Virus record (IMG/VR): IMGVR_UViG_2974607751_000001
Span: 35,533-99,532 of that record
Length of the DNA: 64,000 nucleotides
Source of the DNA: a virus
Taxonomy: Duplodnaviria > Heunggongvirae > Uroviricota > Caudoviricetes > Demerecviridae
Reading direction: 5' to 3' (one strand)
The notes beneath the pieces were generated by a model that made no database searches, was not told the origin of the DNA, and saw nothing but the letters and a program-made list of their open reading frames with translations. Shown one piece after another: positions 6,441 through 41,897 of this stretch. The translations under genes were made by a program, and so were the position numbers. Positions within the stretch are counted from its first letter, which is position 1; each line of letters begins with the position of its first letter.

Positions 6441-6445
6441 GTTTC

Positions 6446-25358: not shown

Positions 25359-25374
25359 TTTTTAAAAAATTCAT

Positions 25375-25403
25375 TTGCTAAACGCTTCAAAATTTCGTAT
25401 AAT
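25375..25403 (+). promoter_or_regulatory. PN25-type early promoter
   Basis: Sequence is TTGCTAaacgcttcaaaatttcgTATAAT. Confidence 0.55.
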
Positions 25404-25441
25404 ATATCTCATAAATTGATCAACAAAAAGGAAAACAAATA

Positions 25442-27222: not shown

Positions 27223-27251
27223 TTGCTTTCAGCTCCAAAATTTTGTATAAT
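27223..27251 (+). promoter_or_regulatory. PN25-type early promoter
   Basis: Sequence is TTGCTTtcagctccaaaattttgTATAAT. Confidence 0.55.
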
Positions 27252-27291
27252 ATATTCATAAATTTGAGAGAACAACAAAAGGAAAATAATT

Positions 27292-29388: not shown

Positions 29389-29417
29389 TTGCTTAAAGCC
29401 TTAAATTTCTGTATAAT
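29389..29417 (+). promoter_or_regulatory. PN25-type early promoter
   Basis: Sequence is TTGCTTaaagccttaaatttctgTATAAT. Confidence 0.55.
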
Positions 29418-29448
29418 ACTTTCATAAATTAATGAGAGGAAGCGAAAT

Positions 29449-29619
29449 ATGAAATCAGTTGTAATTATTGGTGTTAATACTCATGGTATCCGTAATACGA
29501 AAACAGTTAAAACTACTAACGTTGCTGAAATTACTACAAACCCTAAGAAGTTTGATTTCGCCAAAGTCTCGGCAGTTATGACAGAACAATCTTTTAACCA
29601 AGCACTGGGAATTAAATAA
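29449..29619 (+). CDS. hypothetical 56-aa protein
   Basis: Below the track length cutoff; the RBS is gaggaagcgaaatATG. Confidence 0.35.
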   Translation: MKSVVIIGVNTHGIRNTKTVKTTNVAEITTNPKKFDFAKVSAVMTEQSFNQALGIK

Positions 29620-30068
29620 TGGAAGAGAATATTCTAGATGTTTTGCGTAGGGCTTTGCAGGAATCTAAGGTTGATGGTTCTGATAAAGAAGTAGCTAAAA
29701 GCTACCAGACCATAATCGGAGATCTTCAGCGTGTTGATAAAGACTTCATTACTTCTGAACAGTTTGTATCTTATCTAAAAGCTCAACTGAAAAGCATTAA
29801 TCAGACGAAAGCTAAACTTCACGGTCAAGACCCTGATAACTATAGCTTGCAGTCTGCTCAGTATGAATATATACTGAACAAATGGTTACAACAATATCTG
29901 CCGCCTCAGCTTTCTGATTCTGAGATTCGCAAATACTTTGCAGAATTAGTCAAGCTGAACCCTGGAATTACAAAAGGTATGCTGATGAGAGCGATTAAGG
30001 AAGAGTTTCCTGGTCGTTACGACGGTGGCATTGCTGCTCAGGTTGCTGGCGAATTTAATAAAAATTGA
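29619..30068 (+). CDS. GatB/YqeY-domain protein
   Basis: YLPPQLSDSEI...KGMLMRAIKEEFPGRYDGGIAAQVAGEF matches the YqeY C-terminal pattern. Confidence 0.55.
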   Translation: MEENILDVLRRALQESKVDGSDKEVAKSYQTIIGDLQRVDKDFITSEQFVSYLKAQLKSINQTKAKLHGQDPDNYSLQSAQYEYILNKWLQQYLPPQLSDSEIRKYFAELVKLNPGITKGMLMRAIKEEFPGRYDGGIAAQVAGEFNKN

Positions 30069-30098
30069 TTTGCTAAATGCTTCAAAATTCTGTATAAT
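30069..30098 (+). promoter_or_regulatory. PN25-type early promoter (TTGCTA-18-TATAAT) followed by ~830 nt with no ORF
   Basis: Sequence is TTGCTAaatgcttcaaaattctgTATAATagattcataaattagagaacagcg. This is very close to the classical T5 PN25 initial transcribed sequence. Confidence 0.6.
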
Positions 30099-30104
30099 AG
30101 ATTC

Positions 30105-30935
30105 ATAAATTAGAGAACAGCGAGCCGATTACGCTGAGTGAGCTTTAGCGATTCACCTAGTGATAGCTTCTGACACTGAATAGATTCGGTGAGTTGGAGA
30201 CTAGTAAGTACTCTGAGAGAGGCTACGAGCTAACGCTTATTGCTATTGATAGGGAACTGAAAATCTGCGGAAAACTCGGGAGCTGTCCCGAAATCTCGTA
30301 AACTCTTCTCTAGTTTATGTTAGTGGGGTGTCGAACTGACTTATGTGATAACACTGCCAGATGCTCACAGGCTGACATTGAGCTTTACTGCTCCTTCTGG
30401 AAAGAATCGGATAACTCGGGCTTATACCGGATAAGCATTCGCTGCTGGAGTACATACTATGACGGTTCAGGAGGTACGCCGCCTGATCAGTATTAGGTTA
30501 GAATCGAAACAGCTAAACCACGAGGAAACCTGACGGCCTCAACCAAACTCGGAACTCGGGATCACTGCCTAGTGTGTACCCCGTTTAACCTGAGACTAGG
30601 CATCCAGCTTCGCATCGAAAATCGGAGGTGCGATTCTAACAGACCGCGTGAATATGAGAGTGGGAAATGGTAAACCTTCACGGAGGAGCCTTAATGGCAC
30701 GACTAAAGAGCTAGGAAGAACTCGAGATAACTTCCTAGCCGGTGAGTAAAGAGCGACGAGGAGTCATGACCTAAGAGCTGCCGATCAGCCTTAGCTGAAT
30801 AACCACAAAGTCACCCTGACTTAAACTGGAAGATATTGTCTGACGGAAGGGCTGCAGAGCTTAATCTGAGGTGGCTGACCCTACCTACCGCCGGGTATCT
30901 TTAAGGACTTTTACGAGAGTTCTTAAAAATACCTA
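30105..30935 (+). ncRNA. Candidate large structured noncoding RNA (~830 nt), promoter-driven, GC-enriched, no ORF longer than 60 aa in any frame
   Basis: Local hairpins include ctaggaag...cttcctag, gcctagt...actaggc, cggga-gctg-tcccg and gcttat-accgg-ataagc. The aactcggg motif recurs four times. GC content is clearly above flanking genes. Confidence 0.5.
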
Positions 30936-30950
30936 ACAAAAGGAATCAAT

Positions 30951-31460
30951 ATGAATCTAGGAACAACTTGTATCTTTGATCATCAAGAAATGTGTTGCCC
31001 TCGTATTCTGCATATAGCACATTTTCCAGAACGCCTGACACTTGATCAAGCTCGTGAGAAAATGAGTGAGATTACAGGATACAATCTTCGAGAAGGTGAA
31101 TACTTTAGCGTAGCTTTGGATTACATCGACAATACTCGTCTTTATCACCTAGTTCAGCTTGGTGAAGAAACTGATGAAATAAAAATGGCGAAAGATACAT
31201 TACGTCGTTATCGCCCTCAGATTCTAGAGCGTACACTTCGTGGAGAGCCTAGTGATTACTTCTATATGCGCTGTTACGATGCAGATGCACAAGAATACAT
31301 GGCACATCAACGTTTCTACCATGATATTAAAGAGTTCGTTAATATCAAGTATGACAAGCTATTGATTGACTCTAAAGCACGACGTGCTGCTAGGGATGCT
31401 GAGAAATCAGCTAAAGCAGCGCTAGAAAGCCAAACCAAACTGAACGAAATCATTAAGTAA
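30951..31460 (+). CDS. hypothetical protein
   Basis: The RBS is aaaggaatcaatATG. Confidence 0.5.
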   Translation: MNLGTTCIFDHQEMCCPRILHIAHFPERLTLDQAREKMSEITGYNLREGEYFSVALDYIDNTRLYHLVQLGEETDEIKMAKDTLRRYRPQILERTLRGEPSDYFYMRCYDADAQEYMAHQRFYHDIKEFVNIKYDKLLIDSKARRAARDAEKSAKAALESQTKLNEIIK

Positions 31461-31467
31461 TTTATTC

Positions 31468-31542
31468 TCGGGGTGTAGTCTAAGGGATAGGCAGGAGTCT
31501 TCTAAATTCCTTTATGCAGGTTCGAATCCTGTCACCTCGGCC
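31468..31542 (+). tRNA. tRNA-Arg (anticodon TCT)
   Basis: Acceptor cggggtg/cacctcg with G-CCA. Anticodon loop cttctaa. T-loop ggttcgaatcc. Confidence 0.6.
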
Positions 31543-31576
31543 AATTTTATTAACTGTAACTAAACAAAGGAAATAT

Positions 31577-32524: not shown

Positions 32525-32572
32525 TTACACGTAATCTTCAAACCAAGCCCGCGTTTCCTCCGAGAGCGCGGG
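32525..32572 (+). terminator. rho-independent terminator
   Basis: Sequence is gcccgcgtttcctccgagagcgcgggctttt. Confidence 0.65.
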
Positions 32573-32584
32573 CTTTTCTGTATT

Positions 32585-32630
32585 TAAGGCAAAAGAAAAG
32601 CCCCTTACCTTTCGGCAGGGGCTTTGTTTT
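32585..32630. terminator. bidirectional terminator
   Basis: aaaagcccct...aggggctttgttttt has U-tracts on both strands. It separates the plus-strand genes from the minus-strand island. Confidence 0.6.
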
Positions 32631-33295: not shown

Positions 33296-34336
33296 TTAAG
33301 CCGGCAGTTTAGCCTGCAGACCAGCTAGAGCTTGAGTGATAGAACCCAGGCTTACAGCGATTTGGTTGATTACCTGACCGTTAGCACCGCTACCCTGAGC
33401 GATTGCTTCACGAAGACGGCATTCGTCTAATTCATCTTGAATACGCGCAGTAGTTACACCAGCGATTGCAGTCTGAAGTTCACAGCAACATTCAGCGATC
33501 TGACGTTCCAGAGCGTTCTGGTTAGCGCACGCCTGTGCAGCTACAGCAGCGAACTGGTTGTTAGTCTGAATAGTCTGCTGGAAAGCAATCTGAGCAGCAT
33601 CAAACTTGTCTTGAGCACGAGCGATCTGGTTAGCCGCGAAGGACTGATCGATCTGGAGAGACAGGTCAAACTGTCCAGCTAATACGCTACGAGTTTCGGA
33701 ACAAATCTGGTTGGACAGGTTAGCACCAGTACCATACAGAGAAGTCAGAACCTGTTGAGTGCTAGCAGCTTGAGCAGCACCTACACCGTTAACAGCGCTC
33801 AGTACAGCACCAGTTCCCTGGTTTGCTTCAGTACGAGTAGTGTTGATTGCAGCTAGAATACTGGAGGTATTCTGATTACTTAGAACAGTTTCCACACCTG
33901 TTAGCTCCGCAGCAGCGCCAGCAGCACCGCGACCGAAACCACCGAAACCACCAAATCCGCCTGTTAATAGAGCACCGATTAGGATAGCTCCGAATAGACC
34001 CATACCTTCTCCACCGAAAGCACCTGCGTTAGCTGGGAATGCACCCATGCCAGGAAAGCCGTTAGTGAATACGTTTACTGGTTCTTGCATTTTTCTTTCT
34101 CCATATTTGTGATAACCATGATGTTCATGTTCATCTTCTTCTTCGTCGTCTTCATCATCTTCCTCATAGTGTTCATGATGGTGATGGTGATGATGATAAT
34201 GATGCTCGTCAGCTCGCTCTTGAGCTTTAAGCTTTTCCCACTTTTTCTTGTCTGATTCTTCGTGACGATGCAGTTCTGCTGCTACTTCACTTAGAGATTC
34301 AGGTTTCTTAGCTACTTCTTCTGTCATTTTTGACAC
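33296..34336 (-). CDS. His-rich/acidic N-terminus, Gly-rich TM-like middle, Ala/Gln-rich Cys-containing C-terminal protein
   Basis: Segments HHYHHHHHHHEHYEEDDEDDEEEDEHEHH, GGFGGFGGFGRG and ECCCEL are present. Confidence 0.5.
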   Translation of the reverse strand: MSKMTEEVAKKPESLSEVAAELHRHEESDKKKWEKLKAQERADEHHYHHHHHHHEHYEEDDEDDEEEDEHEHHGYHKYGERKMQEPVNVFTNGFPGMGAFPANAGAFGGEGMGLFGAILIGALLTGGFGGFGGFGRGAAGAAAELTGVETVLSNQNTSSILAAINTTRTEANQGTGAVLSAVNGVGAAQAASTQQVLTSLYGTGANLSNQICSETRSVLAGQFDLSLQIDQSFAANQIARAQDKFDAAQIAFQQTIQTNNQFAAVAAQACANQNALERQIAECCCELQTAIAGVTTARIQDELDECRLREAIAQGSGANGQVINQIAVSLGSITQALAGLQAKLPA

Positions 34337-34599
34337 CTCCTAGTATATAGAAAATGTGTGTCTCTTTGATCACTCATCCATAACATATACTTTACACTAC
34401 CCCAGCGAAAATGTCAAGGGGTCTTTAAAAATTGCCCCCGGATTTTTAGTGGGGGTACAAAATCTCTGGGTACTCTCTAAAGTGCCCTCGAATTGTGCTC
34501 CTAATATTTGCTTTCCTGTACTTTTAAAATTAAGTTGATAAATTATGTACTCTATAATATAATAAGTTTATGTATTTTTAAAAGACTATGGAGATACTT

Positions 34600-34833
34600 A
34601 TGATAAAATTCAAAGATCTTGTATTTAAGGATTTAAAGCATGACATAGATGCAATACGTTGTATCCCGTGCTGGGGACAAGGTACTGTTCCTACTTCAAC
34701 GGAAGATAATGTTATTTTAAAATCAGATCCATGCCCTTTCTGTGGAGGATCTGGTATTAATCATCATTACGAAGTAAAACATACAGAAACTATTCATGGT
34801 ACTAAAGTATTTATTATTACTAAAATCAAATAA
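34600..34833 (+). CDS. DnaJ-CR-like zinc-finger mini-protein
   Basis: CIPCWGQG...CPFCGGSG is two CxxCxGxG repeats. Confidence 0.45.
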   Translation: MIKFKDLVFKDLKHDIDAIRCIPCWGQGTVPTSTEDNVILKSDPCPFCGGSGINHHYEVKHTETIHGTKVFIITKIK

Positions 34834-34846
34834 ATTAAAAATTCAA

Positions 34847-34875
34847 TTGCTTAGACGCCAAAATCTCTGTATAAT
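34847..34875 (+). promoter_or_regulatory. PN25-type early promoter
   Basis: Sequence is TTGCTTagacgccaaaatctctgTATAAT, followed by ataaatttgagagaggaatcaaatATG. Confidence 0.55.
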
Positions 34876-34905
34876 ATATTTATAAATTTGAGAGAGGAAT
34901 CAAAT

Positions 34906-35961
34906 ATGATTAAGACTGGTCTAGTAATTGGTAAGTTCGCACCATTAACGCGTGGCCATATTAACTTAATTAACACAGCAGCAACTATGTGTGAACGAGT
35001 TATTGTTGTAGTTAGTCATGATAATCGCTGGCTGGATAAGCAAAACACACGTGATCAGGAAGTCTTACAATTAAAGAACCGTTTACGTTGGTTAGAACAA
35101 ACCTATGCTGATATCGAACATGTATCAGTAGAATATATTATAGAAGATGATATTCCTGAGTATCCTAATGGTTGGCCAGAATATGCTAGAATACTGAATG
35201 ATAATTATGGCCATTTGCCTGAAATTACCATTTTCTCTAGCGAACTAGACTATGATGCAGAATATAAGAAATATCTGCCGAAGTTCGGACATTATATTGT
35301 AGACTCTGATCGGACTCGTGTTCCAATCTCAGCTACTATGATTCGTAATGATCTTATGAAGTATTGGGAATTTCTTCCTAGCGTAGTTCGTAAAGACTAT
35401 GTGCGTAAGGTTGTTATCATTGGTACGGAAAGCTCCGGCAAAACAACTTTAACAAAGTACCTTGCGAAATTATATAATACTTCGTGGGTAGAAGAATATG
35501 GACGTACTTACTGTGAAGTTGATCTAGTTGGTAATGAAGAACTCCTGACTAGCGAGGACTATAATAAAATTGCATTCAGGCACAAAGAGCTAGAGTTTGA
35601 AGCAGAACGTACTGCAAATAAGATCATGTTTGTGGATACCAATGCTTTCATTACTGAATTCTATCACAGGCTCTATGAACATCGTAAAAATCCGGTTGTA
35701 ACAGCTATTGCTAAAGAAGAGCATTATGATTTAGTTATAGTTTTAGCACCTACTGTTAAGTGGGTAGATGATGGTTTACGTATTAACTCCGATCGTTCAA
35801 TTACTTCTGAACTGTTCGAGCAGATGAAGAAAGAATTTCCTAATCAGTTCCCAGAAGGGCGTACTGTGTATATTGACTCCCCGGACTATAAAGTTCGTAT
35901 GGACGAAGCAGTAAACGCAGTAGATTGGCTGATTCATCACTTTAACGTTGGAGAGTTTTAA
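34906..35961 (+). CDS. nadR: NadR-type bifunctional NMN adenylyltransferase / ribosylnicotinamide kinase (lacks the HTH repressor domain)
   Basis: Segments align with E. coli NadR. GKFAPLTRGH matches GKFYPLHTGH. RLRWLEQTY and EYPNGWPEY are shared. Walker A is GTESSGKTTL. The C-terminal block is HYDLVIVLAPTVKWVDDGLR. Confidence 0.85.
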   Translation: MIKTGLVIGKFAPLTRGHINLINTAATMCERVIVVVSHDNRWLDKQNTRDQEVLQLKNRLRWLEQTYADIEHVSVEYIIEDDIPEYPNGWPEYARILNDNYGHLPEITIFSSELDYDAEYKKYLPKFGHYIVDSDRTRVPISATMIRNDLMKYWEFLPSVVRKDYVRKVVIIGTESSGKTTLTKYLAKLYNTSWVEEYGRTYCEVDLVGNEELLTSEDYNKIAFRHKELEFEAERTANKIMFVDTNAFITEFYHRLYEHRKNPVVTAIAKEEHYDLVIVLAPTVKWVDDGLRINSDRSITSELFEQMKKEFPNQFPEGRTVYIDSPDYKVRMDEAVNAVDWLIHHFNVGEF

Positions 35962-35962
35962 T

Positions 35963-36640
35963 ATGACTAACTATCTTGTAAATGACTTTAAAAACTGGAA
36001 ATCTTTGGAATATTTGTGGCTGTTCATAGCAGTTGCCTTTATTAGCTTAGCAAATTATAACGGTACAGCTCTAGACTGGGCTACCGCAATAACCAACGTG
36101 GTTTGTGTTATTCTGGTTGCAAAAGGGCGTGTTTCCAACTATATTTGGGGCTTAGTTGGTGTTCTTACCTATGGTATTACAGCTTTAAATGCAGATCTTT
36201 ATGGTAACGCTGCACTAAACCTGCTATACTACGTTCCTATGCAGTTTTATGGTATGTATTTATGGCATAAAAATAAGCCAAGTAATCTGCCAGACGTTCC
36301 GACTAAGATTCTGACTAAAGCCCAAGCTTTGTTGACTCTAGGGGTTCTAGCAGTAGCTACTTTAGGTTACGGCAGCTTCCTTGCTACCACAGCTGATCCA
36401 TTCCCAATGCTTGACGCATTTACTGCGGTTGGTAGTGTGATTGCTATGTGGCTTATGGTTAAGCAATATGCTGAACAATGGCTGATCTGGATTGCTATTA
36501 ACATTGGTACTGTGTACATTTGGCTTGTAACTGCTCAATCTACAGGTGCATCTTACGCAATCCTAGCAATGTGGCTAGTATTCTTAGGTAACTCTATTCT
36601 TGGAGCTTATAAAGGATACTTTGTACGCGTTAACAAATAA
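35963..36640 (+). CDS. pnuC: PnuC nicotinamide riboside transporter
   Basis: A ~225-aa polytopic membrane protein with NY.WG...V..Y and a W-rich pattern like PnuC. It overlaps the nadR stop codon. Confidence 0.7.
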   Translation: MTNYLVNDFKNWKSLEYLWLFIAVAFISLANYNGTALDWATAITNVVCVILVAKGRVSNYIWGLVGVLTYGITALNADLYGNAALNLLYYVPMQFYGMYLWHKNKPSNLPDVPTKILTKAQALLTLGVLAVATLGYGSFLATTADPFPMLDAFTAVGSVIAMWLMVKQYAEQWLIWIAINIGTVYIWLVTAQSTGASYAILAMWLVFLGNSILGAYKGYFVRVNK

Positions 36641-36687
36641 AGTAGTTATAGCCCTCTAAGCGAGGGCTATTATACAGAAATTTTCAC

Positions 36688-36716
36688 TTGCTTAATATAG
36701 AAAATTTCTGTATAAT
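36688..36716 (+). promoter_or_regulatory. PN25-type early promoter
   Basis: Sequence is TTGCTTaatatagaaaatttctgTATAAT. The leader is identical to the 34.87 kb copy over about 35 nt. Confidence 0.55.
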
Positions 36717-36746
36717 ATATTTATAAATTTGAGAGAGGAATCAAAC

Positions 36747-37043
36747 ATGAAACGCATCGTACTTGCATTGACTCTAGTATCTACTTCTGTATTTGCTGCT
36801 CCACAACAGGAACTTTGTCAAGTTCAAGTTTGTAATAAGCTAGAACGATTTACTCTAGACATTTGGTCACACATTAAAGATAATATGGGTGAACAGTGTT
36901 TTGATATTGTTCTGCCAAAAGAACAAGCTGTTCCTGGTGCTGTTCTCAGCTCAGAATCACGTTGGTGGCAGGGTTCTTCTATCAATCCAACTAAGAAGTC
37001 AGTGACACGTATCAAACAAGTATATCAGTGCAATGTTCAGTAA
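36747..37043 (+). CDS. Secreted small protein (signal peptide)
   Basis: The signal peptide is MKRIVLALTLVSTSVFA-APQ. Confidence 0.5.
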   Translation: MKRIVLALTLVSTSVFAAPQQELCQVQVCNKLERFTLDIWSHIKDNMGEQCFDIVLPKEQAVPGAVLSSESRWWQGSSINPTKKSVTRIKQVYQCNVQ

Positions 37044-37051
37044 AATTTCAC

Positions 37052-37080
37052 TTGCTTAATGCCGAAATTTTCTGTATAAT
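37052..37080 (+). promoter_or_regulatory. PN25-type early promoter driving tRNA genes
   Basis: TTGCTTaatgccgaaattttctgTATAAT is followed directly by two tRNAs. Confidence 0.55.
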
Positions 37081-37094
37081 ATATTCATAAATTT

Positions 37095-37188
37095 GGAAGA
37101 TTAACCCTAAAGGTAAGGGAGCTGTTTGCTAAACAGCCAGTAGCTGTGGAGACACGGTGTGCCAGTTCGAGTCTGGCATCTTCCTCCA
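37095..37188 (+). tRNA. tRNA-Ser (GCT), type II
   Basis: Acceptor ggaagat/atcttcc. Anticodon loop tgctaaa. Long variable arm. CCA is encoded. Confidence 0.6.
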
Positions 37189-37193
37189 AATTT

Positions 37194-37271
37194 GGTTCTC
37201 AAGCTCATTTGGTATGAGCCGTCGCCTCATAAGCGAAAGGTAGGTAGGTTCGAATCCTCCGGGAGCCACCA
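37194..37271 (+). tRNA. tRNA with CAT anticodon (Met/fMet/Ile2), copy 1
   Basis: Acceptor ggttctc/gggagcc with G-U pairs. Anticodon loop ctcataa. Confidence 0.5.
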
Positions 37272-37288
37272 ATTAACTAGGAGACTAT

Positions 37289-37477
37289 ATGTCTAAGTTT
37301 CGAGAGCTTAAACAAGAACTAGAAGAACTCGCCTGCCCTCATTGTTTTGGAAGAGGCGAGAAAGATGATGCAGAACCTGGAGATATATTTTGTAGAACAT
37401 GGACTTGTCCAGTCTGCGAGGGTACTGGGATTAATCCTCTTTATACTGTTTCTCTTTTTGTAGGAGTTGCTAAGTAA
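37289..37477 (+). CDS. DnaJ-CR-like zinc-finger mini-protein (paralog of 34600)
   Basis: The motif is CPHCFGRG...CPVCEGTG. Confidence 0.45.
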   Translation: MSKFRELKQELEELACPHCFGRGEKDDAEPGDIFCRTWTCPVCEGTGINPLYTVSLFVGVAK

Positions 37478-37809
37478 TGGATATCTATACTACTCCAGCA
37501 GTAAACCTGATTGGCTCTTGCCTTGTGCATTTCCGCTTCTTCCAGACGGATGATAGCAAAGAGGAAGTTACACATCCTCTGATGGATTTTCAGATCGAGG
37601 ACTTCTTCCGTGAAGTTCGTAATATTTCTGAAAACTTCTACTACGGTATGGATAAGGAAGATTTCGACATTGAATTTCCTACAATCTCTCGTTATTTCCT
37701 AGAGCAGTCTGATGCTCGGTTTGAGAAGATTGAACATATGGAAGTAGTTTGGGCAATTCAGTTTGAAATTACTGGTTTTGCTCGATACATTCAAGGCTAC
37801 GAACTCTAA
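37477..37809 (+). CDS. hypothetical protein
   Basis: Translationally coupled to the upstream ORF (ATG overlaps its stop). Confidence 0.45.
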   Translation: MDIYTTPAVNLIGSCLVHFRFFQTDDSKEEVTHPLMDFQIEDFFREVRNISENFYYGMDKEDFDIEFPTISRYFLEQSDARFEKIEHMEVVWAIQFEITGFARYIQGYEL

Positions 37810-37818
37810 AGATTACAT

Positions 37819-37895
37819 GGGGGTGTAATCGAATTGGCATAGGTACTGGACTTAAAATTCAGGTTTTGTGGGTTCGAGTCCCACCACCCCTACCA
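37819..37895 (+). tRNA. tRNA with TAA anticodon (Leu) on a type-I scaffold
   Basis: Acceptor gggggtg/cacccct. Anticodon stem ctgga/ttcag with loop cttaaaa. Short 5-nt variable region. CCA is encoded. Confidence 0.45.
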
Positions 37896-38046
37896 AATTA
37901 AGGAAATAAAATGAAAGCTATTAAGAAAGCACTACGTAAATTTATGTACTGTCGTTTTCATAGCATCAAGGCTTCAACTAATGGTACGACTTACGATCGC
38001 TATGATCCTAAGTTTGGCTTACATTCTAAACAACTGGAGAAAACAA

Positions 38047-38253
38047 ATGGCTAATCCTGAAATTACGGCACAACGCTTTATGCTGAAAGGAATTATTGCT
38101 GAAGCAGGCATGACAGAAGAAGTTGCAGATTTTCAAAAGCAATTCCTCAATATTCTCACTCAAGCCAAAGAGCTAGGAGAGAAAGAACATGGCGCGGCTA
38201 TTATGGCAATCACGTTGGTTGGGCTTGATCTGGCTGAAGAATCCGGAGTTTAA
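38047..38253 (+). CDS. hypothetical small protein
   Basis: The RBS is ggagaaaacaaATG. A 45-aa ORF at 37911..38048 lies upstream. Confidence 0.4.
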   Translation: MANPEITAQRFMLKGIIAEAGMTEEVADFQKQFLNILTQAKELGEKEHGAAIMAITLVGLDLAEESGV

Positions 38254-38343
38254 CTCCCCCAAGCAGAAATTTTAAAAATGTACTTGCTTTTTACTTAAGA
38301 TTTCTGCTATAATAGTTATATAAATTGATGAAGGAGTTAACGA

Positions 38344-38619
38344 ATGTCAAAACGTGTTACTGCAACTGGTGTTGAAAGTGCTGTTTGTAAATCCTGGGGT
38401 GGCTGGGAAGGTGAGATTGAATGGCTTTATTTCTACGATGTAGAACTTCTGCCGGAAATCAAAGCTAAATGTGTGGAAGCTGGTATGGCCCCTGATGCAA
38501 AGGCTGATATCGAAATCACCATGACTAAGCTAGAAGGTCGTGTAATTACGCTCAATGATGATTATGAAGAAGTGTTCGAGCTTCCATTCAAACTGAGTGT
38601 CACTCCTAGCTTCGAGTAA
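38344..38619 (+). CDS. hypothetical protein
   Basis: A promoter TTGCTT-18-TATAAT lies at about 38284-38313. Confidence 0.45.
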   Translation: MSKRVTATGVESAVCKSWGGWEGEIEWLYFYDVELLPEIKAKCVEAGMAPDAKADIEITMTKLEGRVITLNDDYEEVFELPFKLSVTPSFE

Positions 38620-38809
38620 CTGATATAGCACTGAGCAAGTTCTTTAAAATTTGACTTGCTCAGTCCTTCAAAACTTGATATAATAGTTATCTAATTTGGA
38701 AAACATATCTGAATGAGAAGTAACTAAGCGAGTTGCTTTTAGGGGTAAAGTCAGGAAATCCTGAAATATTCCACCTTGGGTTTAACCGACTTACTTTTCA
38801 TTCAAATAT

Positions 38810-38900
38810 GTTGGATTAGTATCGTAGAGGTAGCGAAGCAGACTGTAAATCTGCCGACTCGGAAGGGTCTCGGGTGGTTCGACTCCATCATCCAACACCA
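38810..38900 (+). tRNA. tRNA-Tyr (GTA), type II
   Basis: Acceptor gttggat/atccaac. Loop ctgtaaa. Long variable arm. Confidence 0.65.
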
Positions 38901-38907
38901 AATTTAA

Positions 38908-38984
38908 GTCCTGTTAGACAAACTGGTAAAGTCACTACCCTTTCAAGGTAGGATTTGCGGGTTCGATCCCCGCACAGGACGCCA
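38908..38984 (+). tRNA. tRNA-Glu (TTC)
   Basis: Acceptor gtcctgt/acaggac. Anticodon arm ctacc-ctttcaa-ggtag. Confidence 0.65.
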
Positions 38985-38992
38985 ATTTCTGC

Positions 38993-39069
38993 ATTCCTAG
39001 AGTGTTACTGGACAGCATGTCGGTCTCCAAAACCGTACGGTCTAGGTTCGAGTCCTAGTAGGTTTGCCA
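38993..39069 (+). tRNA. degenerate tRNA-Trp-like (CCA anticodon), acceptor stem with U-U mismatches
   Basis: T-arm ctagg-ttcgagt-cctag. Loop ctccaaa. The acceptor pairs poorly. Confidence 0.35.
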
Positions 39070-39075
39070 ATATTT

Positions 39076-39150
39076 GCACCTTTAGCTGAGATGGATTAGC
39101 GCTTGCCTGAAGAGCTTGAGAGGTTCGTTCGATACGAACAGGGTGCACCA
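39076..39150 (+). tRNA. tRNA-Phe-like (GAA), anticodon stem with two U-U mismatches
   Basis: Acceptor gcacctt/agggtgc. T-arm gttcg-ttcgata-cgaac. Loop ctgaaga. Confidence 0.4.
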
Positions 39151-39167
39151 ATTTGGAGGAGATGCTG

Positions 39168-39440
39168 ATGCATCCTAAAAACTTCTTTATTTACTGTGCG
39201 GATAAGTCACTGAAACGCAGAATTAACAAAGTCTATCATTATCGTGCTAGTCAACAGCCTTATGTTTATGCTTTTGACGGAGATTACATTCCACTAGATC
39301 AGTTGGCCTGTGATTACATGGTATTGAAGAACTTTGACGAGACAAAGATCTCAAGCGTTCATAATCTACAGAACCCGTTAACGTGGAAGTATAAGAAGAA
39401 AAAGAAAGGCATCACATTTCTGAAAAATGTAGTTGCTTAA
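39168..39440 (+). CDS. hypothetical protein
   Basis: The RBS is ggaggagatgctgATG. Confidence 0.4.
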   Translation: MHPKNFFIYCADKSLKRRINKVYHYRASQQPYVYAFDGDYIPLDQLACDYMVLKNFDETKISSVHNLQNPLTWKYKKKKKGITFLKNVVA

Positions 39441-39490
39441 CCGCTTAAAGTTCTGTATAATTATTACATAAATTGAACTGGAGAAGCAAC

Positions 39491-39715
39491 ATGACTGAAC
39501 AAGAATTGAAAGAACGTAAGCTGGTAATGCTTCGTTTACTAAACATTTTCTCTGGTATGGATGGTGGTATTGACTTCATGCAACTACGTTGCTTTGTAGA
39601 AGAAGCAGAAGGCGAGGCTATCACTAGAATTCTTAAACATATGGGTTTGTTACTAGATGCTGCTAATGTGGCTACTCAATATAAACTCGAAGATTTACCG
39701 GAGCGTGTTGGATGA
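39491..39715 (+). CDS. hypothetical small protein
   Basis: A promoter lies at about 39428-39460. The RBS is ctggagaagcaacATG. Confidence 0.4.
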   Translation: MTEQELKERKLVMLRLLNIFSGMDGGIDFMQLRCFVEEAEGEAITRILKHMGLLLDAANVATQYKLEDLPERVG

Positions 39716-39903
39716 AAAAGTTAGTTAAATTTAAGTGTTGTGGCTCTGAACATATCTTTACACGTCTACGTGAGTTTAAGATGTGTAAGTGTGGTAAATC
39801 AGGCTATGATGCTGGAGACGGTTATTACTCCCGTACTCTAGGAGACTTCAACGATTTAGAGTTCGTTGATCTCGAAAAACAAGATAAATCGACCGTTGGC
39901 TGA
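39712..39903 (+). CDS. small zinc-ribbon protein
   Basis: The motif is CCGSEH...CKCGKSG. Its 3' end overlaps the next tRNA by about 14 nt. Confidence 0.4.
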   Translation: MKKLVKFKCCGSEHIFTRLREFKMCKCGKSGYDAGDGYYSRTLGDFNDLEFVDLEKQDKSTVG

Positions 39904-39965
39904 ATGGCTTAGGCGGAGGCCTGCAAAACCTCTTTATGTGAGTTCGAATCTCATGCGGTCGTCCA
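39890..39965 (+). tRNA. tRNA-Cys (GCA)
   Basis: Acceptor cgaccgt/gcggtcg. Loop ctgcaaa. T-arm gtgag-ttcgaat-ctcat. Confidence 0.55.
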
Positions 39966-39972
39966 AATTTTA

Positions 39973-40055
39973 GGGTCGTTAGCCAAGCGGTTTGGCGGTG
40001 GACTGTTAATCCATGTCGAAAGACAACGTAGGTTCGAATCCTACACGGCCCGCCA
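39973..40055 (+). tRNA. Type-II-architecture tRNA carrying an Asn anticodon (GTT), discriminator G73
   Basis: Acceptor gggtcgt/acggccc. 3-bp D-stem gcc/ggc. Anticodon arm gtgga-ctgttaa-tccat. 13-nt variable arm gtc-GAAA-gac. Confidence 0.5.
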
Positions 40056-40082
40056 ATTTCATTAACAACTGAGGAAATAGAT

Positions 40083-40268
40083 ATGACAACTCGTGCAATT
40101 GCTCGACTAGAAGCTGACCGTGATAATCTAATTAATAATATTAAGGTCTGGGATCAAGAAATTGAAAACCAAAAACTGACGTTAATACAAGATATGCAGC
40201 AACAGAATGCACGTCGTGAAGCTCTAAAAGAGGTTGAGGAAGCTATCGAAAAACTCAAAGCTGAGTAA
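40083..40268 (+). CDS. hypothetical small coiled-coil protein
   Basis: Short ORF between tRNA blocks. Confidence 0.4.
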   Translation: MTTRAIARLEADRDNLINNIKVWDQEIENQKLTLIQDMQQQNARREALKEVEEAIEKLKAE

Positions 40269-40277
40269 ACAAATTAT

Positions 40278-40354
40278 GCGATCGGGGCTGGCTTGGTAAT
40301 GGTACTCCCCTGTCACGGGAGAGAATGTGGGTTCGAATCCCATCGGTCGCGCCA
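40278..40354 (+). tRNA. tRNA-Asp (GTC)
   Basis: Acceptor gcgatcg/cggtcgc. Loop ctgtcac. Confidence 0.65.
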
Positions 40355-40360
40355 AATAAT

Positions 40361-40436
40361 ACATCCATAGCTCAATGGTTAGAGCTACCGCCTCTTAAGC
40401 GGAGGGTTCTAGGTTCAAGTCCTAGTGGGTGTACCA
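40361..40436 (+). tRNA. tRNA-Lys (CTT)
   Basis: Acceptor acatcca/tgggtgt. D-arm gctcaatggttagagc. Loop ctcttaa. Confidence 0.55.
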
Positions 40437-40442
40437 AATAAA

Positions 40443-40566
40443 CATTCTAGCGTGGTGGAGAGGGGACACCAGCTTGCCGAGGGTAGAAGCTCGTTCGATT
40501 CGAGTGAAAGAATGGTTCTCGTAAATCCGCACAAGTGATAGCAGGTTCAAGTCCTGCCTAGATTGA
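40443..40566 (+). ncRNA. ~120-nt tRNA-like element (acceptor-like ends and T-arm gcagg-ttcaagt-cctgc, but oversize core, no CCA)
   Basis: Ends cattcta/tagattg pair. There is an internal second T-loop-like gctcg-ttcgatt-cgagt. The size fits no standard tRNA class. Confidence 0.3.
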
Positions 40567-40574
40567 CTTATTAT

Positions 40575-40648
40575 GCGTTCGTAGTTAAAAGGTATAATTT
40601 TTGGTTGCCAACCAGAAGTTGAGGGTTCGATTCCCTCCGACCGCACCA
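40575..40648 (+). tRNA. tRNA-Gly (GCC)
   Basis: Acceptor gcgttcg/cgaccgc with one mismatch. Anticodon arm tttgg-ttgccaa-ccaga. Confidence 0.55.
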
Positions 40649-40960
40649 AATTTAGGTTTCTGCTTCCTAGAGAACGGACTCCTAGATAAACAAGGCGATG
40701 AGTTTCCGGCCGGTTCTAGTCGCTGAAAATCCTCCCGACCAGGTAGGTGTAAGTAAACAAAAGTTTACTTATTGAGTAGGTTCCGATAGATCGGCGGGTC
40801 TATTCTGGCATTTAAGAGAAGTCTCGCAAACTTCTTTGTCAGCAGAGCGTTTGAAGCGTGAGGTGGCCTACACAATAAGTAAATTTATTAAAAACTCATT
40901 TGCTATTTCGCTTAATTCTCTATATAATATATTTTATAGAGTGAAGAGAAGGAAAGTTAA

Positions 40961-41470
40961 ATGAAATATAATAAAGGCGAATCAAAAAGTCTATATGAAC
41001 TACTATCTACTGGTTCAGTATCGGGAGATATTACACCAGAAAATATAAGGTTCTTAGTAGAAAATATAACTAATAAAGAATCTTGTGATAAATTTAAGGT
41101 TTCTTGTTCGCCCCATAATTATGCTAGAAAAATAAGGCATTTTGAGCAGATAGTAGCAAGAGATTTATTAAAATTCTACCATAAAGAGAATAAATCGTCA
41201 GGATTAGACGCAGGGTATGTATATTTAATATCTAACCCTGCATGGGAAGAATTTAAAGTAGGGTGTGCTATTGATGTATATGATAGATTAAAATCGTATC
41301 AAACGTATAGCCCTTACAGAGATTATAGCTTAGAGTTTTATTTCTTCTCATTTCAAAGAAGAGAAGATGAATCTAAAGTGCTAGAGTTCTTTAACTCCAC
41401 AGGAGAATGGATTTCTTCCCCAAAAGAAGAAATTATTGCCTTTATGAAAACTTTAGCTAAATATAGATAA
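40961..41470 (+). CDS. T5orf172 / GIY-YIG-like domain protein (putative homing-type endonuclease) inside the tRNA cluster
   Basis: GYVYLISNPAWEEFKVGCAIDVYDRLKSYQT matches the GIY...YIG-like core of the T5orf172 family. Confidence 0.55.
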   Translation: MKYNKGESKSLYELLSTGSVSGDITPENIRFLVENITNKESCDKFKVSCSPHNYARKIRHFEQIVARDLLKFYHKENKSSGLDAGYVYLISNPAWEEFKVGCAIDVYDRLKSYQTYSPYRDYSLEFYFFSFQRREDESKVLEFFNSTGEWISSPKEEIIAFMKTLAKYR

Positions 41471-41546
41471 CAGTGCGTAGCGCAGTTGGTAGCGTGGGAG
41501 CCTTGGATGCTTCGGGTCGCAGGTTCGAGTCCTGCCGCACTGACCA
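41471..41546 (+). tRNA. tRNA-Pro (TGG)
   Basis: Acceptor cagtgcg/cgcactg. Loop cttggat. It starts 1 nt after the ORF stop codon. Confidence 0.65.
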
Positions 41547-41552
41547 AACAAT

Positions 41553-41630
41553 CGCGGGTTAGATCTCTGGTAGAGATCGCTAGTCTCATAAGCTAGAAAG
41601 AGGTAGGTTCGATTCCTGCACCCGCTTCCA
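41553..41630 (+). tRNA. tRNA with CAT anticodon, copy 2, with a 1-72 C-U mismatch (initiator-like top pair)
   Basis: Acceptor cgcgggt/acccgct. Anticodon arm ctagt-ctcataa-gctag. Confidence 0.5.
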
Positions 41631-41818
41631 ATTTAATAGAAGGATTTCGAAATGAAATTATTTCATTTAAAGGTAAGTGATTTACGTTCTAGCAAAGATC
41701 GTAAGAAGTATCCACTAGCTCACTACGGTAAAGATGAAAACGAAGTGATGGCGGAATTTGGTATTAATCATCCTTACTTGAGAGTTTATTCTATTAAAGA
41801 AGTATACATGTATTAAAT

Positions 41819-41897
41819 AGATCGCTAGCTCAATTGGTTTAGCAGCACCCGGCTTTTAACCGGAAGGTTCTGGGTTCGAGTCCCAGGCGGTCTACCA
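41819..41897 (+). tRNA. tRNA-Lys (TTT)
   Basis: Acceptor agatcgc/gcggtct. Anticodon arm ccgg-cttttaa-ccgg. Confidence 0.6.

What the first reader, a model, noticed from the sequence alone, without database searches (positions are those of the whole stretch)
30069..30950. ~830-nt promoter-driven, ORF-free, GC-enriched, helix-rich segment: candidate large structured ncRNA
A near-canonical T5 PN25-type promoter (TTGCTA-18-TATAAT with an 'agattcataaattagagaa' initial transcribed sequence) fires into about 830 nt with no ORF longer than 60 aa in any frame. The genome is otherwise about 90% coding. The segment is visibly richer in G+C than the flanking AT-rich genes. It holds many perfect local hairpins, including ctaggaag-N12-cttcctag at 30711-30738, gcctagt-N21-actaggc at about 30565-30600, cggga-gctg-tcccg at about 30286-30299 and gcttat-accgg-ataagc at about 30419-30436. 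The octamer aactcggg recurs at 30283, 30413, 30546 and 30553. The next ORF (30951) has an RBS but no promoter of its own, so the RNA is either a very long structured leader or a processed stable RNA. Its size and phage/tRNA-cluster context recall giant ornate RNAs such as GOLLD, ROOL or HEARO, which are unknown in T5-like coliphages.
Basis: seen in the sequence. Interest (0 to 1): 0.8.

Follow-up and report, generated by a model that had tools for sequence, protein, structure and literature searches.

The report
T5 "RNAX" large structured RNA homologue
This gene-free stretch of Salmonella phage STG2 encodes a roughly 830-nucleotide folded RNA, the counterpart of a "stable RNA of unknown function" (RNAX) annotated long ago in phage T5; it is conserved across the T5-like phage family but has never been characterised.

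Summary
Window 30070-30098 is a TTGCTA-17-TATAAT promoter, and about 830 nt follow with no ORF above 59 aa and a raised G+C content. The window is Salmonella phage STG2, whose record annotates nothing here. The same slot in phage T5 (YqeY-like gene, promoter P16-17, ORF-free stretch, tRNA-Arg) is annotated as misc_RNA rnaX, "stable RNA with unknown functions". STG2 shares T5's core motifs in the same order. So do Klebsiella Sugarlandvirus and Pectobacterium phage DU_PP_V; Proteus phage 2 keeps them in a different order.

Covariation is strong. In the central domain 96.6% of cells pair, against 33-44% in slid controls, and 16 of 37 pairs change on both sides. One long-range helix has three independent compensatory variants. 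G.U pairs favour the + strand.

No Rfam family matches, so it is not GOLLD, ROOL, HEARO, OLE, raiA, tmRNA, RNase P RNA or an intron. Most relatives embed a tRNA-like domain; STG2 has a plain stem-loop there. The T5 st0 deletion removes rnaX, so it is dispensable in the laboratory.

Verdict: a real, large, modular structured RNA. It is a new member of an annotated but unstudied family, and its function is unknown.

The parts
30070..30098 (+). Sigma-70 early promoter of the T5 P16-17 / PN25 type: TTGCTA, 17-nt spacer, TATAAT
   Evidence: scores it 10/12 with a 17-nt spacer. T5 annotates 'promoter P 16-17' and S114 a 'P16-17-like promoter' at the same site. Paralogous promoters occur elsewhere in the window.
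30105..30933 (+). The RNA itself: the STG2 homologue of T5 RNAX, about 829 nt. The 5' end is inferred from the promoter. The 3' limit is set at the end of the terminal hairpin.
   Evidence: ORF-free. Core motifs run in the same order as in T5, Sugarlandvirus and DU_PP_V. The whole-RNA consensus has 140 pairs, 94.1% paired against 36-45% when slid.
30105..30117 (+). P1, 5' strand (AUAAAUUAGAGAA). It pairs with 30306-30318 and so sequesters the 5' end.
   Evidence: 13 bp in STG2. In T5 the same two strands form a simple hairpin. Relatives with an extra GA in the 5' strand carry an extra UC in the 3' strand.
30118..30305 (+). Optional 5' domain inserted in P1. It includes hairpins CAGCG/CGCUG (30118-30136) and UCGGGA/UCCCGA (30276-30291).
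   Evidence: Absent in T5 (L028) and L026; replaced by an HNH endonuclease ORF in L007 and L046. CAGCG/CGCUG becomes CAGCA/UGCUG in DU_PP_V and Proteus phage 2. The 30276-30291 hairpin has 5 of 6 pairs with changes on both sides.
30306..30318 (+). P1, 3' strand (UUCUCUAGUUUAU)
30321..30358 (+). Conserved 'block B' (UAGUGGGGUGUCGAA..ACUUAUGU..AACACUGCC). It holds the 5' strand of the domain-closing helix (GUGG, 30323-30326) and the 5' strand of helix P-B (30336-30349).
   Evidence: Many of its columns are invariant across 28 sequences. Model R1 finds one copy per phage.
30336..30419 (+). Helix P-B: 30336-30349 pairs with 30406-30419 as three 4-bp segments separated by 1x1 internal loops. It encloses the slot where relatives carry the tRNA-like domain.
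   Evidence: 12 pairs, 7 with changes on both sides, 99.7% of cells paired.
30357..30400 (+). STG2-specific replacement of the tRNA-like domain: closing stem CCAGA/UCUGG plus hairpin GCUCA..UGAGC
   Evidence: Alignment A1 shows that only STG2 and L005 (SH9) have this. All other sequences carry a tRNA-like element that scores 29-38 bits on Rfam tRNA and that ARAGORN calls Ser(act) or SeC(tca). No tRNA hit falls here in STG2.
30420..30436 (+). Hairpin GCUUAU-ACCGG-AUAAGC
   Evidence: helix 7: 3 of 6 pairs change on both sides (for example GGUUCU/CGAACC in Sugarlandvirus).
30444..30513 (+). Helix GCUG (30444-30447) : CAGC (30510-30513), enclosing variable hairpins
   Evidence: It becomes GCGG:CCGC in L036 and GCUA:UAGC in DU_PP_V; 3 of 4 pairs change on both sides.
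30505..30556 (+). Invariant island of 52 nt. It contains CCAC (30518-30521), which pairs with GUGG (30323-30326) to close the central domain.
   Evidence: 52/52 nt identical between STG2 and Klebsiella phage vB_Kpl_K32PH164C1. Compensatory variants are AUGG:CCAU (L045), ACGG:CCGU (DU_PP_V) and AUGGG:CCCAU (Proteus phage 2).
30566..30602 (+). Lineage-variable hairpin (UGCCUAGU..ACUAGGCA)
   Evidence: Other lineages carry different cassettes here.
30610..30633 (+). Hairpin UCGCAUC-GAAAAUCGGA-GGUGCGA with a conserved loop
   Evidence: UCGCA/UGCGA becomes UCACA/UGUGA in Sugarlandvirus.
30660..30806 (+). Third domain, proposed to be closed by GUGG (30660-30663) : CCAC (30803-30806). It contains hairpin 30711-30738 and the palindromic loop.
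   Evidence: Both motifs are conserved in position, and they stay unchanged in L045 where the first GUGG:CCAC pair covaries. The pairing itself is inferred.
30759..30772 (+). Short stem presenting the invariant palindrome GUCAUGAC (30763-30770) in an 8-nt loop
   Evidence: Invariant in all 26 aligned sequences, while the closing and outer stems covary. It is the only copy in the 64-kb window.
30809..30821 (+). Conserved hairpin AGUCA-CCC-UGACU
   Evidence: Paired in 25 of 26 sequences; it does not vary.
30894..30933 (+). Terminal 16-bp hairpin. It is the most sequence-conserved part of the RNA. In most relatives tRNA-Arg(UCU) follows 4-5 nt later.
   Evidence: 38-42 nt at 92-100% identity between subfamilies; 94.5% paired, with G.U pairs that would be A.C on the - strand. 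The C.A mismatch at 30899/30928 is U-A in the T5 type and C-G in Sugarlandvirus. It is not a terminator.
30951..31460 (+). Accessory 169-aa ORF lying between the RNA and tRNA-Arg. It is a neighbour, not part of the RNA.
   Evidence: Present in only some relatives. No Pfam or PHROG family matches.
31469..31543 (+). tRNA-Arg(UCU), the gene found downstream of the RNA in every intact locus examined (absent from the truncated BF23 locus)

Best explanation
Window 30105-30933 (+) encodes the STG2 member of the RNAX family. T5 annotates its counterpart as rnaX, a 'stable RNA with unknown functions'.

Shown:
- It is non-coding.
- It shares T5 rnaX's position and its core motifs in the same order.
- It is conserved in at least five lineages of Demerecviridae.
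- It folds on the + strand into a multi-domain structure. Helices, including long-range ones, are kept through compensatory changes. Peripheral hairpins are swapped as cassettes.

Inferred biogenesis. Host RNA polymerase starts at about A30105 from a strong early promoter. The 5' end is locked in the 13-bp helix P1 and the 3' end in a 16-bp terminal hairpin, which suits a long-lived RNA. In T5 and most relatives, RNase P cutting at the 5' end of tRNA-Arg would release the RNA. In STG2 it stays joined to, or is processed away from, the mRNA of a 169-aa ORF, tRNA-Arg and an SPFH-domain gene.

Inferred function (low confidence). It is an accessory, trans-acting scaffold or decoy RNA of the deletable tRNA / anti-defence region. 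It is dispensable on laboratory hosts but under strong purifying selection in nature. Most relatives display a tRNA mimic at the tip of helix P-B, with an intact acceptor stem, T-arm and D/T elbow but a defective anticodon arm. That points to an interaction with tRNA-binding factors, either host tRNA-directed nucleases or processing enzymes, or a phage protein. STG2 has replaced the mimic with a plain stem-loop and kept the rest of the core, so the core must have a role that does not depend on the mimic. The invariant palindromic loop GUCAUGAC could let two copies pair.
For: Identity and synteny:
- 100% match to MK005300.1, with nothing annotated there.
- T5 annotates rnaX and promoter P16-17 in the same slot.
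- Motifs run in the same order as in T5, Sugarlandvirus and DU_PP_V.
- A covariance model of the central domain finds exactly one copy per phage: T5 176 bits, DU_PP_V 116, STG2 95.6, BF23 83. Proteus phage 2 scores 64.9 bits and was not in the seed.

Structure:
- A1: 96.6% paired against 33-44% slid; 16 of 37 pairs change on both sides against 1-5; covariation score 0.303 against at most 0.08.
- A2: 93.6% against 27-51%.
- Whole RNA: 140 pairs, 94.1% against 36-45%; 48 pairs change on both sides against 11-19.
- The GUGG:CCAC helix has three independent compensatory variants.

Strand:
- The promoter is on the + strand.
- G.U cells number 273 against 49 A.C cells, and the alifold energy is -185.5 (+) against -165.6 (-).

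Non-coding:
- The longest ORF is 59 aa and is not conserved.

Selection:
- A 52/52-nt island is identical between phages whose neighbouring endolysins are about 65% identical in protein.

Accessory status:
- The T5 st0 deletion (33667-41891) removes rnaX.
- BF23 lacks most of it.
- T5-family phages carry a deletable anti-defence island of about 8 kb.

tRNA mimic in relatives.
Against: - No expression or stability data exist for STG2. The label 'stable RNA' is a GenBank annotation for T5, and I found no supporting paper.
- Single-sequence folding is not significantly better than shuffles.
- The proposed function is inference from context.
- STG2 lacks the tRNA mimic.
- The YqeY-like neighbour, a possible tRNA-binding partner, is missing from nearly all Klebsiella Sugarlandvirus genomes that carry the RNA (3 records against 82).
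- HNH-endonuclease insertions and the BF23 truncation show that large parts can be lost.
- Covariation counts come from related sequences and partly from structures derived on the same alignments, so they overstate independence.
Confidence: 0.85

Rival explanations
1. It is only a long, structured 5' leader or spacer of the tRNA-Arg (and, in STG2, ORF169) precursor. Its structure serves in cis, to stabilise the precursor, guide RNase P, III or E processing, or tune expression of the downstream tRNA and genes. It has no trans-acting role.
For: - tRNA-Arg(UCU) follows it in every intact locus examined, usually 4-5 nt after the terminal hairpin.
- No terminator separates them.
- The terminal hairpin, which lies next to the tRNA, is the most conserved part.
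Against: - A leader does not need 650-1300 nt with long-range helices, invariant 52-nt islands and an embedded tRNA mimic.
- In STG2, DU_PP_V-distant relatives and Sugarlandvirus, one or two ORFs separate it from tRNA-Arg while its core is unchanged.
- The other 28 tRNAs of the window have no such leader.
Confidence: 0.2
2. It is an RNA-only multimeric particle of the GOLLD or ROOL type. This would be an independent class of large ornate phage RNA that self-assembles, with the invariant palindromic loop GUCAUGAC acting as a kissing contact.
For: - Size is 0.65-1.3 kb, it is phage-encoded, it sits in a tRNA cluster, and relatives embed a tRNA-like element. From my own knowledge, these are the contextual hallmarks described for GOLLD and ROOL.
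- The architecture is multi-domain with long-range helices.
- An invariant 8-nt self-complementary sequence sits in a loop closed by covarying stems.
Against: - No sequence or structure match to the GOLLD or ROOL models.
- The palindrome never varies, so pairing cannot be tested by covariation.
- No other self-complementary loop was found.
- Multimerisation cannot be tested with these tools.
Confidence: 0.12
3. The conservation acts at the DNA level: a replication origin with a primer transcript, a recombination or homing-endonuclease hot spot, or protein-binding sites. It does not reflect a functional RNA.
For: - The region is a mosaic of exchanged cassettes and a landing site for HNH endonucleases.
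- The st0 and BF23 deletion end-points lie at or near it.
- A strong promoter feeding a purine-rich transcript resembles primer-RNA origins. This last point is my inference.
Against: - Compensatory changes keep helices intact, and G.U pairs are tolerated only in the + strand reading (273 G.U against 49 A.C cells; terminal hairpin).
- T5 st0, which lacks the region, replicates normally, so it cannot be an essential origin.
Confidence: 0.04
4. It is decayed coding sequence or a graveyard of dead tRNA genes with no function.
For: - It lies in a region rich in tRNA genes, pseudo-tRNAs and small ORFs.
- Some annotators call small ORFs here.
- STG2 has lost the tRNA-like element.
Against: - No ORF is conserved between lineages.
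- The 59-aa ORF has no Pfam match.
- There are no tRNA or other Rfam hits inside the STG2 segment.
- Islands of 90-100% nucleotide identity persist across genera, and the covariation is extensive.
Confidence: 0.02

Closest known systems
Bacteriophage T5 rnaX (RNAX; T5s08 in NC_005859, also annotated in AY734508)
   Same: - Same slot: after the YqeY-like gene and a P16-17-type promoter, and before tRNA-Arg(UCU).
- ORF-free.
- Same order of core motifs: P1, block B, helix P-B, AAACCAC, GUGGGAAA, GGAGUCAUGACC, AUAACCAC, AGUCACCYUGACU and the terminal hairpin.
- The same covariance model hits both.
   Different: - BLAST aligns only about 20-30% of the STG2 sequence to T5-type copies.
- STG2 has a 190-nt domain inserted in P1 that T5 lacks.
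- STG2 lacks T5's embedded tRNA-like domain.
- Several internal cassettes differ.
- In STG2 a 169-aa ORF sits between the RNA and tRNA-Arg.
GOLLD and ROOL RNAs (large ornate RNAs of phages and prophages; Rfam)
   Same: - A large structured non-coding RNA encoded by phages.
- Located among tRNA genes, and in relatives carrying a tRNA-like element inside.
- Conserved junction nucleotides with variable peripheral helices.
- Function unknown.

The GOLLD and ROOL context features are from my own knowledge.
   Different: - No match to either covariance model at E <= 10.
- Different hosts and phages: virulent siphoviruses of Enterobacterales.
- Multimerisation has not been tested.
Stable RNAs co-transcribed with tRNAs in other phage tRNA clusters: T5 RNAI, RNAIII, RNA1, RNA2 and RNA3, and T4 species 1 and 2 RNAs (own knowledge)
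   Same: Non-coding RNAs of unknown function that are made from tRNA operons and released by tRNA processing.
   Different: Those RNAs are 70-170 nt and some are simple tRNA-like molecules. RNAX is 5-10 times larger with long-range architecture. Model R1 finds no paralogue among them.
tRNA-mimic-bearing non-coding RNAs (tmRNA, bacterial YrlA / Y RNA, viral tRNA-like structures)
   Same: In most RNAX relatives a tRNA-like domain (acceptor stem, T-arm, D/T elbow) is displayed on a long helix within a larger RNA.
   Different: - ARAGORN finds no tmRNA and Rfam gives no tmRNA or YrlA match.
- The mimic is internal, with no free CCA end encoded.
- STG2 lacks it altogether.

Membership tests
T5 RNAX (rnaX) family | Position: downstream of the YqeY-like gene and a P16-17-type early promoter, and upstream of tRNA-Arg(UCU) | tested here: met
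   In STG2 a 169-aa ORF lies between the RNA and tRNA-Arg.
T5 RNAX (rnaX) family | Sequence and structure homology to T5 rnaX | tested here: met
   Core motifs run in the same order. Model R1 scores 95.6 bits (E 1e-22) in the window and 176 bits in T5 rnaX. Both sequences were in the seed; Proteus phage 2, which was not, scores 64.9 bits.
T5 RNAX (rnaX) family | No protein-coding capacity | tested here: met
   The longest ORF is 59 aa; it is not conserved and has no Pfam hit.
T5 RNAX (rnaX) family | Accumulates as a stable RNA in infected cells | not testable with these tools
   Only the GenBank note for T5 says so. I found no paper.
T5 RNAX (rnaX) family | Embedded tRNA-like domain on helix P-B | tested here: not met
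   Present in T5, L002, L003 and L036 at 29-38 bits on Rfam tRNA. In STG2 and SH9 a CCAGA/UCUGG stem-loop replaces it. This feature is common in the family but is not part of any formal definition.
GOLLD / ROOL / HEARO / OLE / raiA (Rfam large ncRNAs) | Match to the family covariance model | tested here: not met
   cmscan of 30060-30960 against all 4227 Rfam 15 families at E <= 10 gave 0 matches. None was found at E <= 1 in a 5-kb search either.
tmRNA | tRNA-like domain with a tag reading frame (ARAGORN or Rfam model) | tested here: not met
   ARAGORN finds no tmRNA in the window or in 28 loci. Rfam finds none.
RNase P RNA, group I / II introns, 6S RNA, T-box | Match to the family covariance model | tested here: not met
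CsrB-type protein sponge | Strong excess of GGA motifs | tested here: not met
   21 GGA observed against 18.9 +/- 2.9 in 300 dinucleotide shuffles.
tRNA gene or pseudo-tRNA array | tRNA-model hits along the segment | tested here: not met
   No ARAGORN or Rfam tRNA hit falls in 30069-30950. Model R1 shows only weak cross-hits, and those are to true tRNAs elsewhere.

The most novel reading that the evidence does not exclude
RNAX would be a distinct and so far unrecognised class of large ornate structured RNA. It is 0.65-1.3 kb, multi-domain, has long-range helices, usually displays a tRNA mimic, and is specific to T5-like phages (Demerecviridae). It would act in trans as part of the deletable tRNA / anti-defence island, for example as a decoy or scaffold for tRNA-directed host factors, or as a self-assembling RNA particle. 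It would then be the enterobacterial, genetically tractable counterpart of GOLLD and ROOL, with a natural knock-out (T5 st0) already in laboratory use.
Probability: 0.4. Interest if true: 0.8.

Novelty: new member of a known kind. Interest (0 to 1): 0.6.

Why it matters
Large structured RNAs of unknown function, such as GOLLD and ROOL, are an open problem. They occur mostly in uncultured or hard-to-handle phages. RNAX is comparable in size and context, but it sits in T5 and its relatives, classic phages of E. coli and Salmonella.

Several practical advantages follow:
- T5 st0 is a ready-made natural deletion, and wild-type phage is available for comparison.
- Hundreds of sequenced variants exist for covariation analysis.
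- Natural domain swaps have already happened: the tRNA mimic present or replaced, and the 5' domain present, absent or displaced by a homing endonuclease.

The RNA is not in Rfam, I found no paper on it, and most phage genome records leave the stretch blank or fill it with spurious small ORFs. Recognising it would correct the annotation of about 500 genomes. It would also give an experimentally accessible model for what large phage RNAs next to tRNA clusters do, possibly in the contest between tRNA-targeting host defences and phage counter-measures.

Tried and rejected
- **Known RNA families.** Rfam 15 at permissive thresholds gave nothing on the segment. On five homologous loci only tRNA matched. 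ARAGORN found no tmRNA.
- **CsrA sponge or a trap of Shine-Dalgarno-like (ribosome-binding) motifs.** GGA (21 against 18.9) and GGAGG (3 against 1.2) are not enriched.
- **Conserved small ORFs.** Two candidates are absent from Sugarlandvirus and T5-type copies, so I rejected them. One is a 24-codon ORF from ATG 30459 that covers the invariant island. The other is a Shine-Dalgarno site plus ATG mini-ORF at about 30684-30710.
- **Host mimicry.** There is no blastn match to 5,426 E. coli genomes, on either strand.
- **Cellular origin.** An exact scan with a degenerate block-B pattern found nothing in GTDB genomes. It found 11 metagenome contigs, ten close to known T5-like types and those with long parent contigs (about 105-115 kb) of T5-like size.
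- **Obligate partnership with the YqeY-like protein.** The gene lies just upstream in Markadamsvirinae and Proteus phage 2, and one small ORF away in DU_PP_V. It is absent from nearly all Sugarlandvirus genomes that have the RNA, so I weakened this idea.
- **The AACTCGG repeats as a functional motif.** They are locally enriched, but the copies sit in unrelated structural contexts and are not conserved in other lineages.
- **The RNAalifold pairing of GUGG 30323-30326 with CCAC 30803-30806.** I replaced it with pairing to CCAC 30518-30521, because only that partner covaries in L045.
- **A possible loop-loop contact, UCGG 30622-30625 with CCGA 30781-30784.** Left unresolved, since the support is inconsistent.
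- **Literature.** Searches for RNAX or T5 stable RNAs found no paper on this RNA.
- **Alignment caveats.** In the 3' junction (30822-30893), MAFFT does not align T5-type with STG2-type copies in register, so I scored only the unambiguous helices. For A2, I removed the large internal insertion of four Sugarlandvirus sequences by hand.
Full report
**What is there**

The window is Salmonella phage STG2 (MK005300.1, genus Epseptimavirus). Window 30069-30950 equals record 65601-66482 at 100% identity, and the record annotates nothing there. A promoter, TTGCTA-17 nt-TATAAT, lies at 30070-30098. It is followed by AGATTCATAAATTAGAGAA, which is the -10 and initial transcribed sequence shared by many T5-type early promoters in this window.

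By analogy with the T5 N25 promoter, whose transcript starts AUAAAUUU (my own knowledge), transcription should start at A30105. No ORF longer than 59 aa exists on either strand up to the 169-aa ORF at 30951. G+C is 0.459, against 0.33-0.40 in the flanking genes.

Two coordinates and the promoter spacer needed correction. AACTCGG occurs four times, against 0.06 expected. Folding the single sequence is not significantly better than folding shuffles: z = -1.58 on the + strand and -0.34 on the - strand. No terminator-like site lies before 32545. The unit therefore reads promoter, ORF-free 830 nt, ORF169, tRNA-Arg(UCU), SPFH-domain gene.

**It is already annotated in T5**

In T5 (NC_005859) the syntenic stretch runs from the YqeY-like gene T5.081 and 'promoter P 16-17' to tRNA-Arg. 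It is annotated misc_RNA rnaX (T5s08), 'RNAX, stable RNA with unknown functions', 719 nt. AY734508 carries the same feature. Salmonella phage S114 annotates a 'P16-17-like promoter' at the STG2-equivalent site.

BLAST finds related sequence in 525 phage records, and 115 of them cover at least 80% of the query. T5-type copies align over only about 20-30% of the query. Even so, motif mapping shows the same elements in the same order:
- 5' helix P1;
- UAGUGGGGUGUSGAA..ACUUAUGU..AACACUGCC ('block B');
- a tRNA-like element;
- GGWAAGA..GAUAACU;
- a hairpin;
- AAACCAC;
- GUGGGAAA;
- GGAGUCAUGACC;
- AUAACCAC;
- AGUCACCYUGACUUAAACUGGAA;
- a terminal hairpin.

Klebsiella Sugarlandvirus and Pectobacterium phage DU_PP_V of the Mccorquodalevirinae have the same organisation. 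Proteus phage 2 (Novosibvirus) has an ORF-free 800 nt before tRNA-Arg with the same motifs in an apparently different order.

A covariance model of the central domain finds exactly one copy per phage: T5 176 bits, DU_PP_V 116, STG2 95.6 and BF23 83. Proteus phage 2 scores 64.9 bits (E about 7e-15) and was not in the seed.

The family looks confined to T5-like phages:
- no match in 5,426 E. coli genomes;
- no exact match of a block-B pattern in GTDB genomes;
- 11 metagenome contigs, ten close to known T5-like types and those with long parent contigs of T5-like size.

**It is a structured RNA**

*Central domain* (alignment A1, 28 distinct sequences, window 30319-30444). With a hand-drawn structure, 96.6% of cells pair, against 33-44% when partners are slid. 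Sixteen of 37 pairs change on both sides, against 1-5 in the slid controls. The covariation score is 0.303, against 0.08 at most.

Helix P-B (30336-30349 with 30406-30419) has 12 pairs, 7 of them compensatory, and 99.7% of cells paired.

*3' domain* (alignment A2, 26 sequences). For the helices that align unambiguously, 93.6% of cells pair, against 27-51% slid. One hairpin changes on both sides at all five pairs.

*Whole RNA.* An RNAalifold consensus of 18 full-length copies from four lineages has 140 pairs, 94.1% paired against 36-45% slid. Forty-eight pairs change on both sides, against 11-19.

*Long-range helices:*
- GUGG (30323-30326) pairs with CCAC (30518-30521). The pair becomes AUGG:CCAU in L045, ACGG:CCGU in DU_PP_V and AUGGG:CCCAU in Proteus phage 2. 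A second GUGG/CCAC pair (30660-30663 / 30803-30806) stays unchanged in L045.
- GCUG:CAGC (30444-30447 / 30510-30513) becomes GCGG:CCGC in L036 and GCUA:UAGC in DU_PP_V.
- P1 (30105-30117 / 30306-30318) is a plain hairpin in T5. The STG2 5' domain (30118-30305) is therefore an insertion in P1. Length changes in the two strands match.

*Strand.* The promoter is on the + strand. G.U cells outnumber A.C cells 273 to 49. The + strand alignment folds better, -185.5 against -165.6. The terminal hairpin keeps G.U pairs.

*Caveat.* The sequences are related, and parts of the structures were derived from the same alignments, so these counts overstate independence.

**Selection and modularity**

Islands of 90-100% nucleotide identity link STG2 with Klebsiella phages whose neighbouring endolysin is only about 65% identical in protein. 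One island is 52/52 nt, at 30505-30556. Between the islands, hairpins are exchanged as whole cassettes among lineages. This is the usual pattern of a large RNA with a conserved core and variable periphery.

Most copies carry an internal tRNA-like element at the tip of helix P-B. It has a 7-bp acceptor stem, a canonical T-arm GGUUCGAAUCC and a D-arm with GG, but a 3-bp 'anticodon' stem with a 6-nt loop. It scores 29-38 bits on Rfam tRNA, and ARAGORN calls it Ser(act) or SeC(tca).

Among the 28 aligned sequences, only STG2 and SH9 (L005) have replaced it, with a CCAGA/UCUGG stem plus a small hairpin at 30357-30400. In two fetched loci (L007 and L046, the latter phage SE24) an HNH homing endonuclease ORF replaces the 5' domain. 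BF23 keeps only the first third.

**What it is not**

- No Rfam 15 family matches at E <= 10. That excludes GOLLD, ROOL, HEARO, OLE, raiA, tmRNA, RNase P RNA, 6S RNA, T-box and group I/II introns.
- GGA motifs are not enriched, so it is not a CsrB-like sponge.
- Candidate small ORFs are not conserved.
- The 59-aa ORF has no Pfam family.

**Biology and likely mechanism**

The T5 st0 deletion (33667-41891) removes rnaX together with tRNA-Arg, the Toprim protein now called Rad, and several tRNAs. BF23 has a natural deletion of about 4 kb here. A deletable 'anti-defence island' of about 8 kb has been described in T5-family phages; it holds tRNA-Tyr and Rad (10.1101/2023.03.15.532788). RNAX is therefore dispensable on laboratory hosts yet strongly conserved. 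That is the signature of an accessory function, plausibly in host takeover or counter-defence.

Both RNA ends sit in long helices: P1 at the 5' end and a 16-bp terminal hairpin at the 3' end. This fits a long-lived RNA. In T5 the 3' end would be made by RNase P cutting at tRNA-Arg (inferred).

My best guess is a trans-acting scaffold or decoy. In most relatives its tRNA mimic would engage tRNA-binding factors. STG2 keeps the core but not the mimic, so the core has its own role.

The invariant palindrome GUCAUGAC (30763-30770) sits in an 8-nt loop closed by covarying stems, and it is the only copy in the window. It could mediate pairing between two copies. This is untested.

A YqeY-like gene lies just upstream in Markadamsvirinae and Proteus phage 2, and one small ORF away in DU_PP_V. 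The proteins are only 30-39% identical. The gene is missing from nearly all Sugarlandvirus genomes that have the RNA, so it is not an obligate partner.

**Verdict**

The RNA is not a member of GOLLD, ROOL or HEARO. It is also not unknown in T5-like phages: it is the STG2 member of the annotated but uncharacterised T5 RNAX family. I found no paper on RNAX in the searchable library, and it is absent from Rfam.

Noticed in passing
L048 (Proteus phage 2, MT679222.1) 5647-6450: The ORF-free stretch before tRNA-Arg holds the RNAX core motifs, but apparently in a permuted order. The palindrome loop (6189) comes before block B (6242-6354), and a UAACCAC motif lies near the 5' end (5838). This could be a circular permutation of the fold or a rearrangement.
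   Followed up: partly
L007 slot 44-526 and L046 (Salmonella phage SE24); also PMBT36 (hit H76): A 160-aa HNH homing endonuclease (Pfam HNH_3, E 1e-11) is inserted directly after the P16-17-type promoter. It replaces the 5' domain of the RNA, while the rest of the RNA stays intact.
   Followed up: partly
window 30951-31460: A 169-aa ORF with no Pfam or PHROG family lies between the RNA and tRNA-Arg. It is present in only some relatives (STG2, L003, L004, L029, oselot, bobsandoy, SE24), at 80-100% identity. Sugarlandvirus has two different small ORFs in the same place.
   Followed up: partly
window 29619-30068: STG2 annotates the gene upstream of the RNA as 'recombination related exonuclease'. 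It is in fact a YqeY/GatB-tail-like protein (PHROG 1460 'tRNA amidotransferase', E 1e-45; Pfam YqeY below its cut-off).
   Followed up: partly
window 8262-8290(-), 25374-25417, 27236-27269, 29407-29431, 34866-34893, 36706-36734, 37070-37093, 59084-59117: These are further copies of the same early-promoter -10 and initial transcribed sequence (TATAATAGATTCATAAAT...). They form a family of T5 PN25-like promoters spread through the window.
   Followed up: no
window 32545-32629: Two back-to-back G+C-rich hairpins with T-runs give weak, below-threshold Rfam hits (anti-hemB, ctRNA_p42d, Trp_leader). They correspond to the 'efficient bidirectional rho-independent terminator' annotated in T5 after the SPFH/lipoprotein gene.
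   Followed up: no
L034 2075-2395, L041-L043, L036 1486-2164, L002 2240-2410: Several deposited genomes annotate small 'hypothetical protein' ORFs on either strand inside the RNAX stretch. They are not conserved between lineages and overlap covarying helices, so they are probably spurious calls.
   Followed up: partly
L028 / L030 (T5) RNA positions about 502-620: T5 itself carries an extra copy of the AGUCACCUUGAC(U/A)UAAACUGGAA motif. This looks like a duplication or insertion of about 85 nt in the 3' domain, and it is absent from other Tequintavirus copies such as L026.
   Followed up: no
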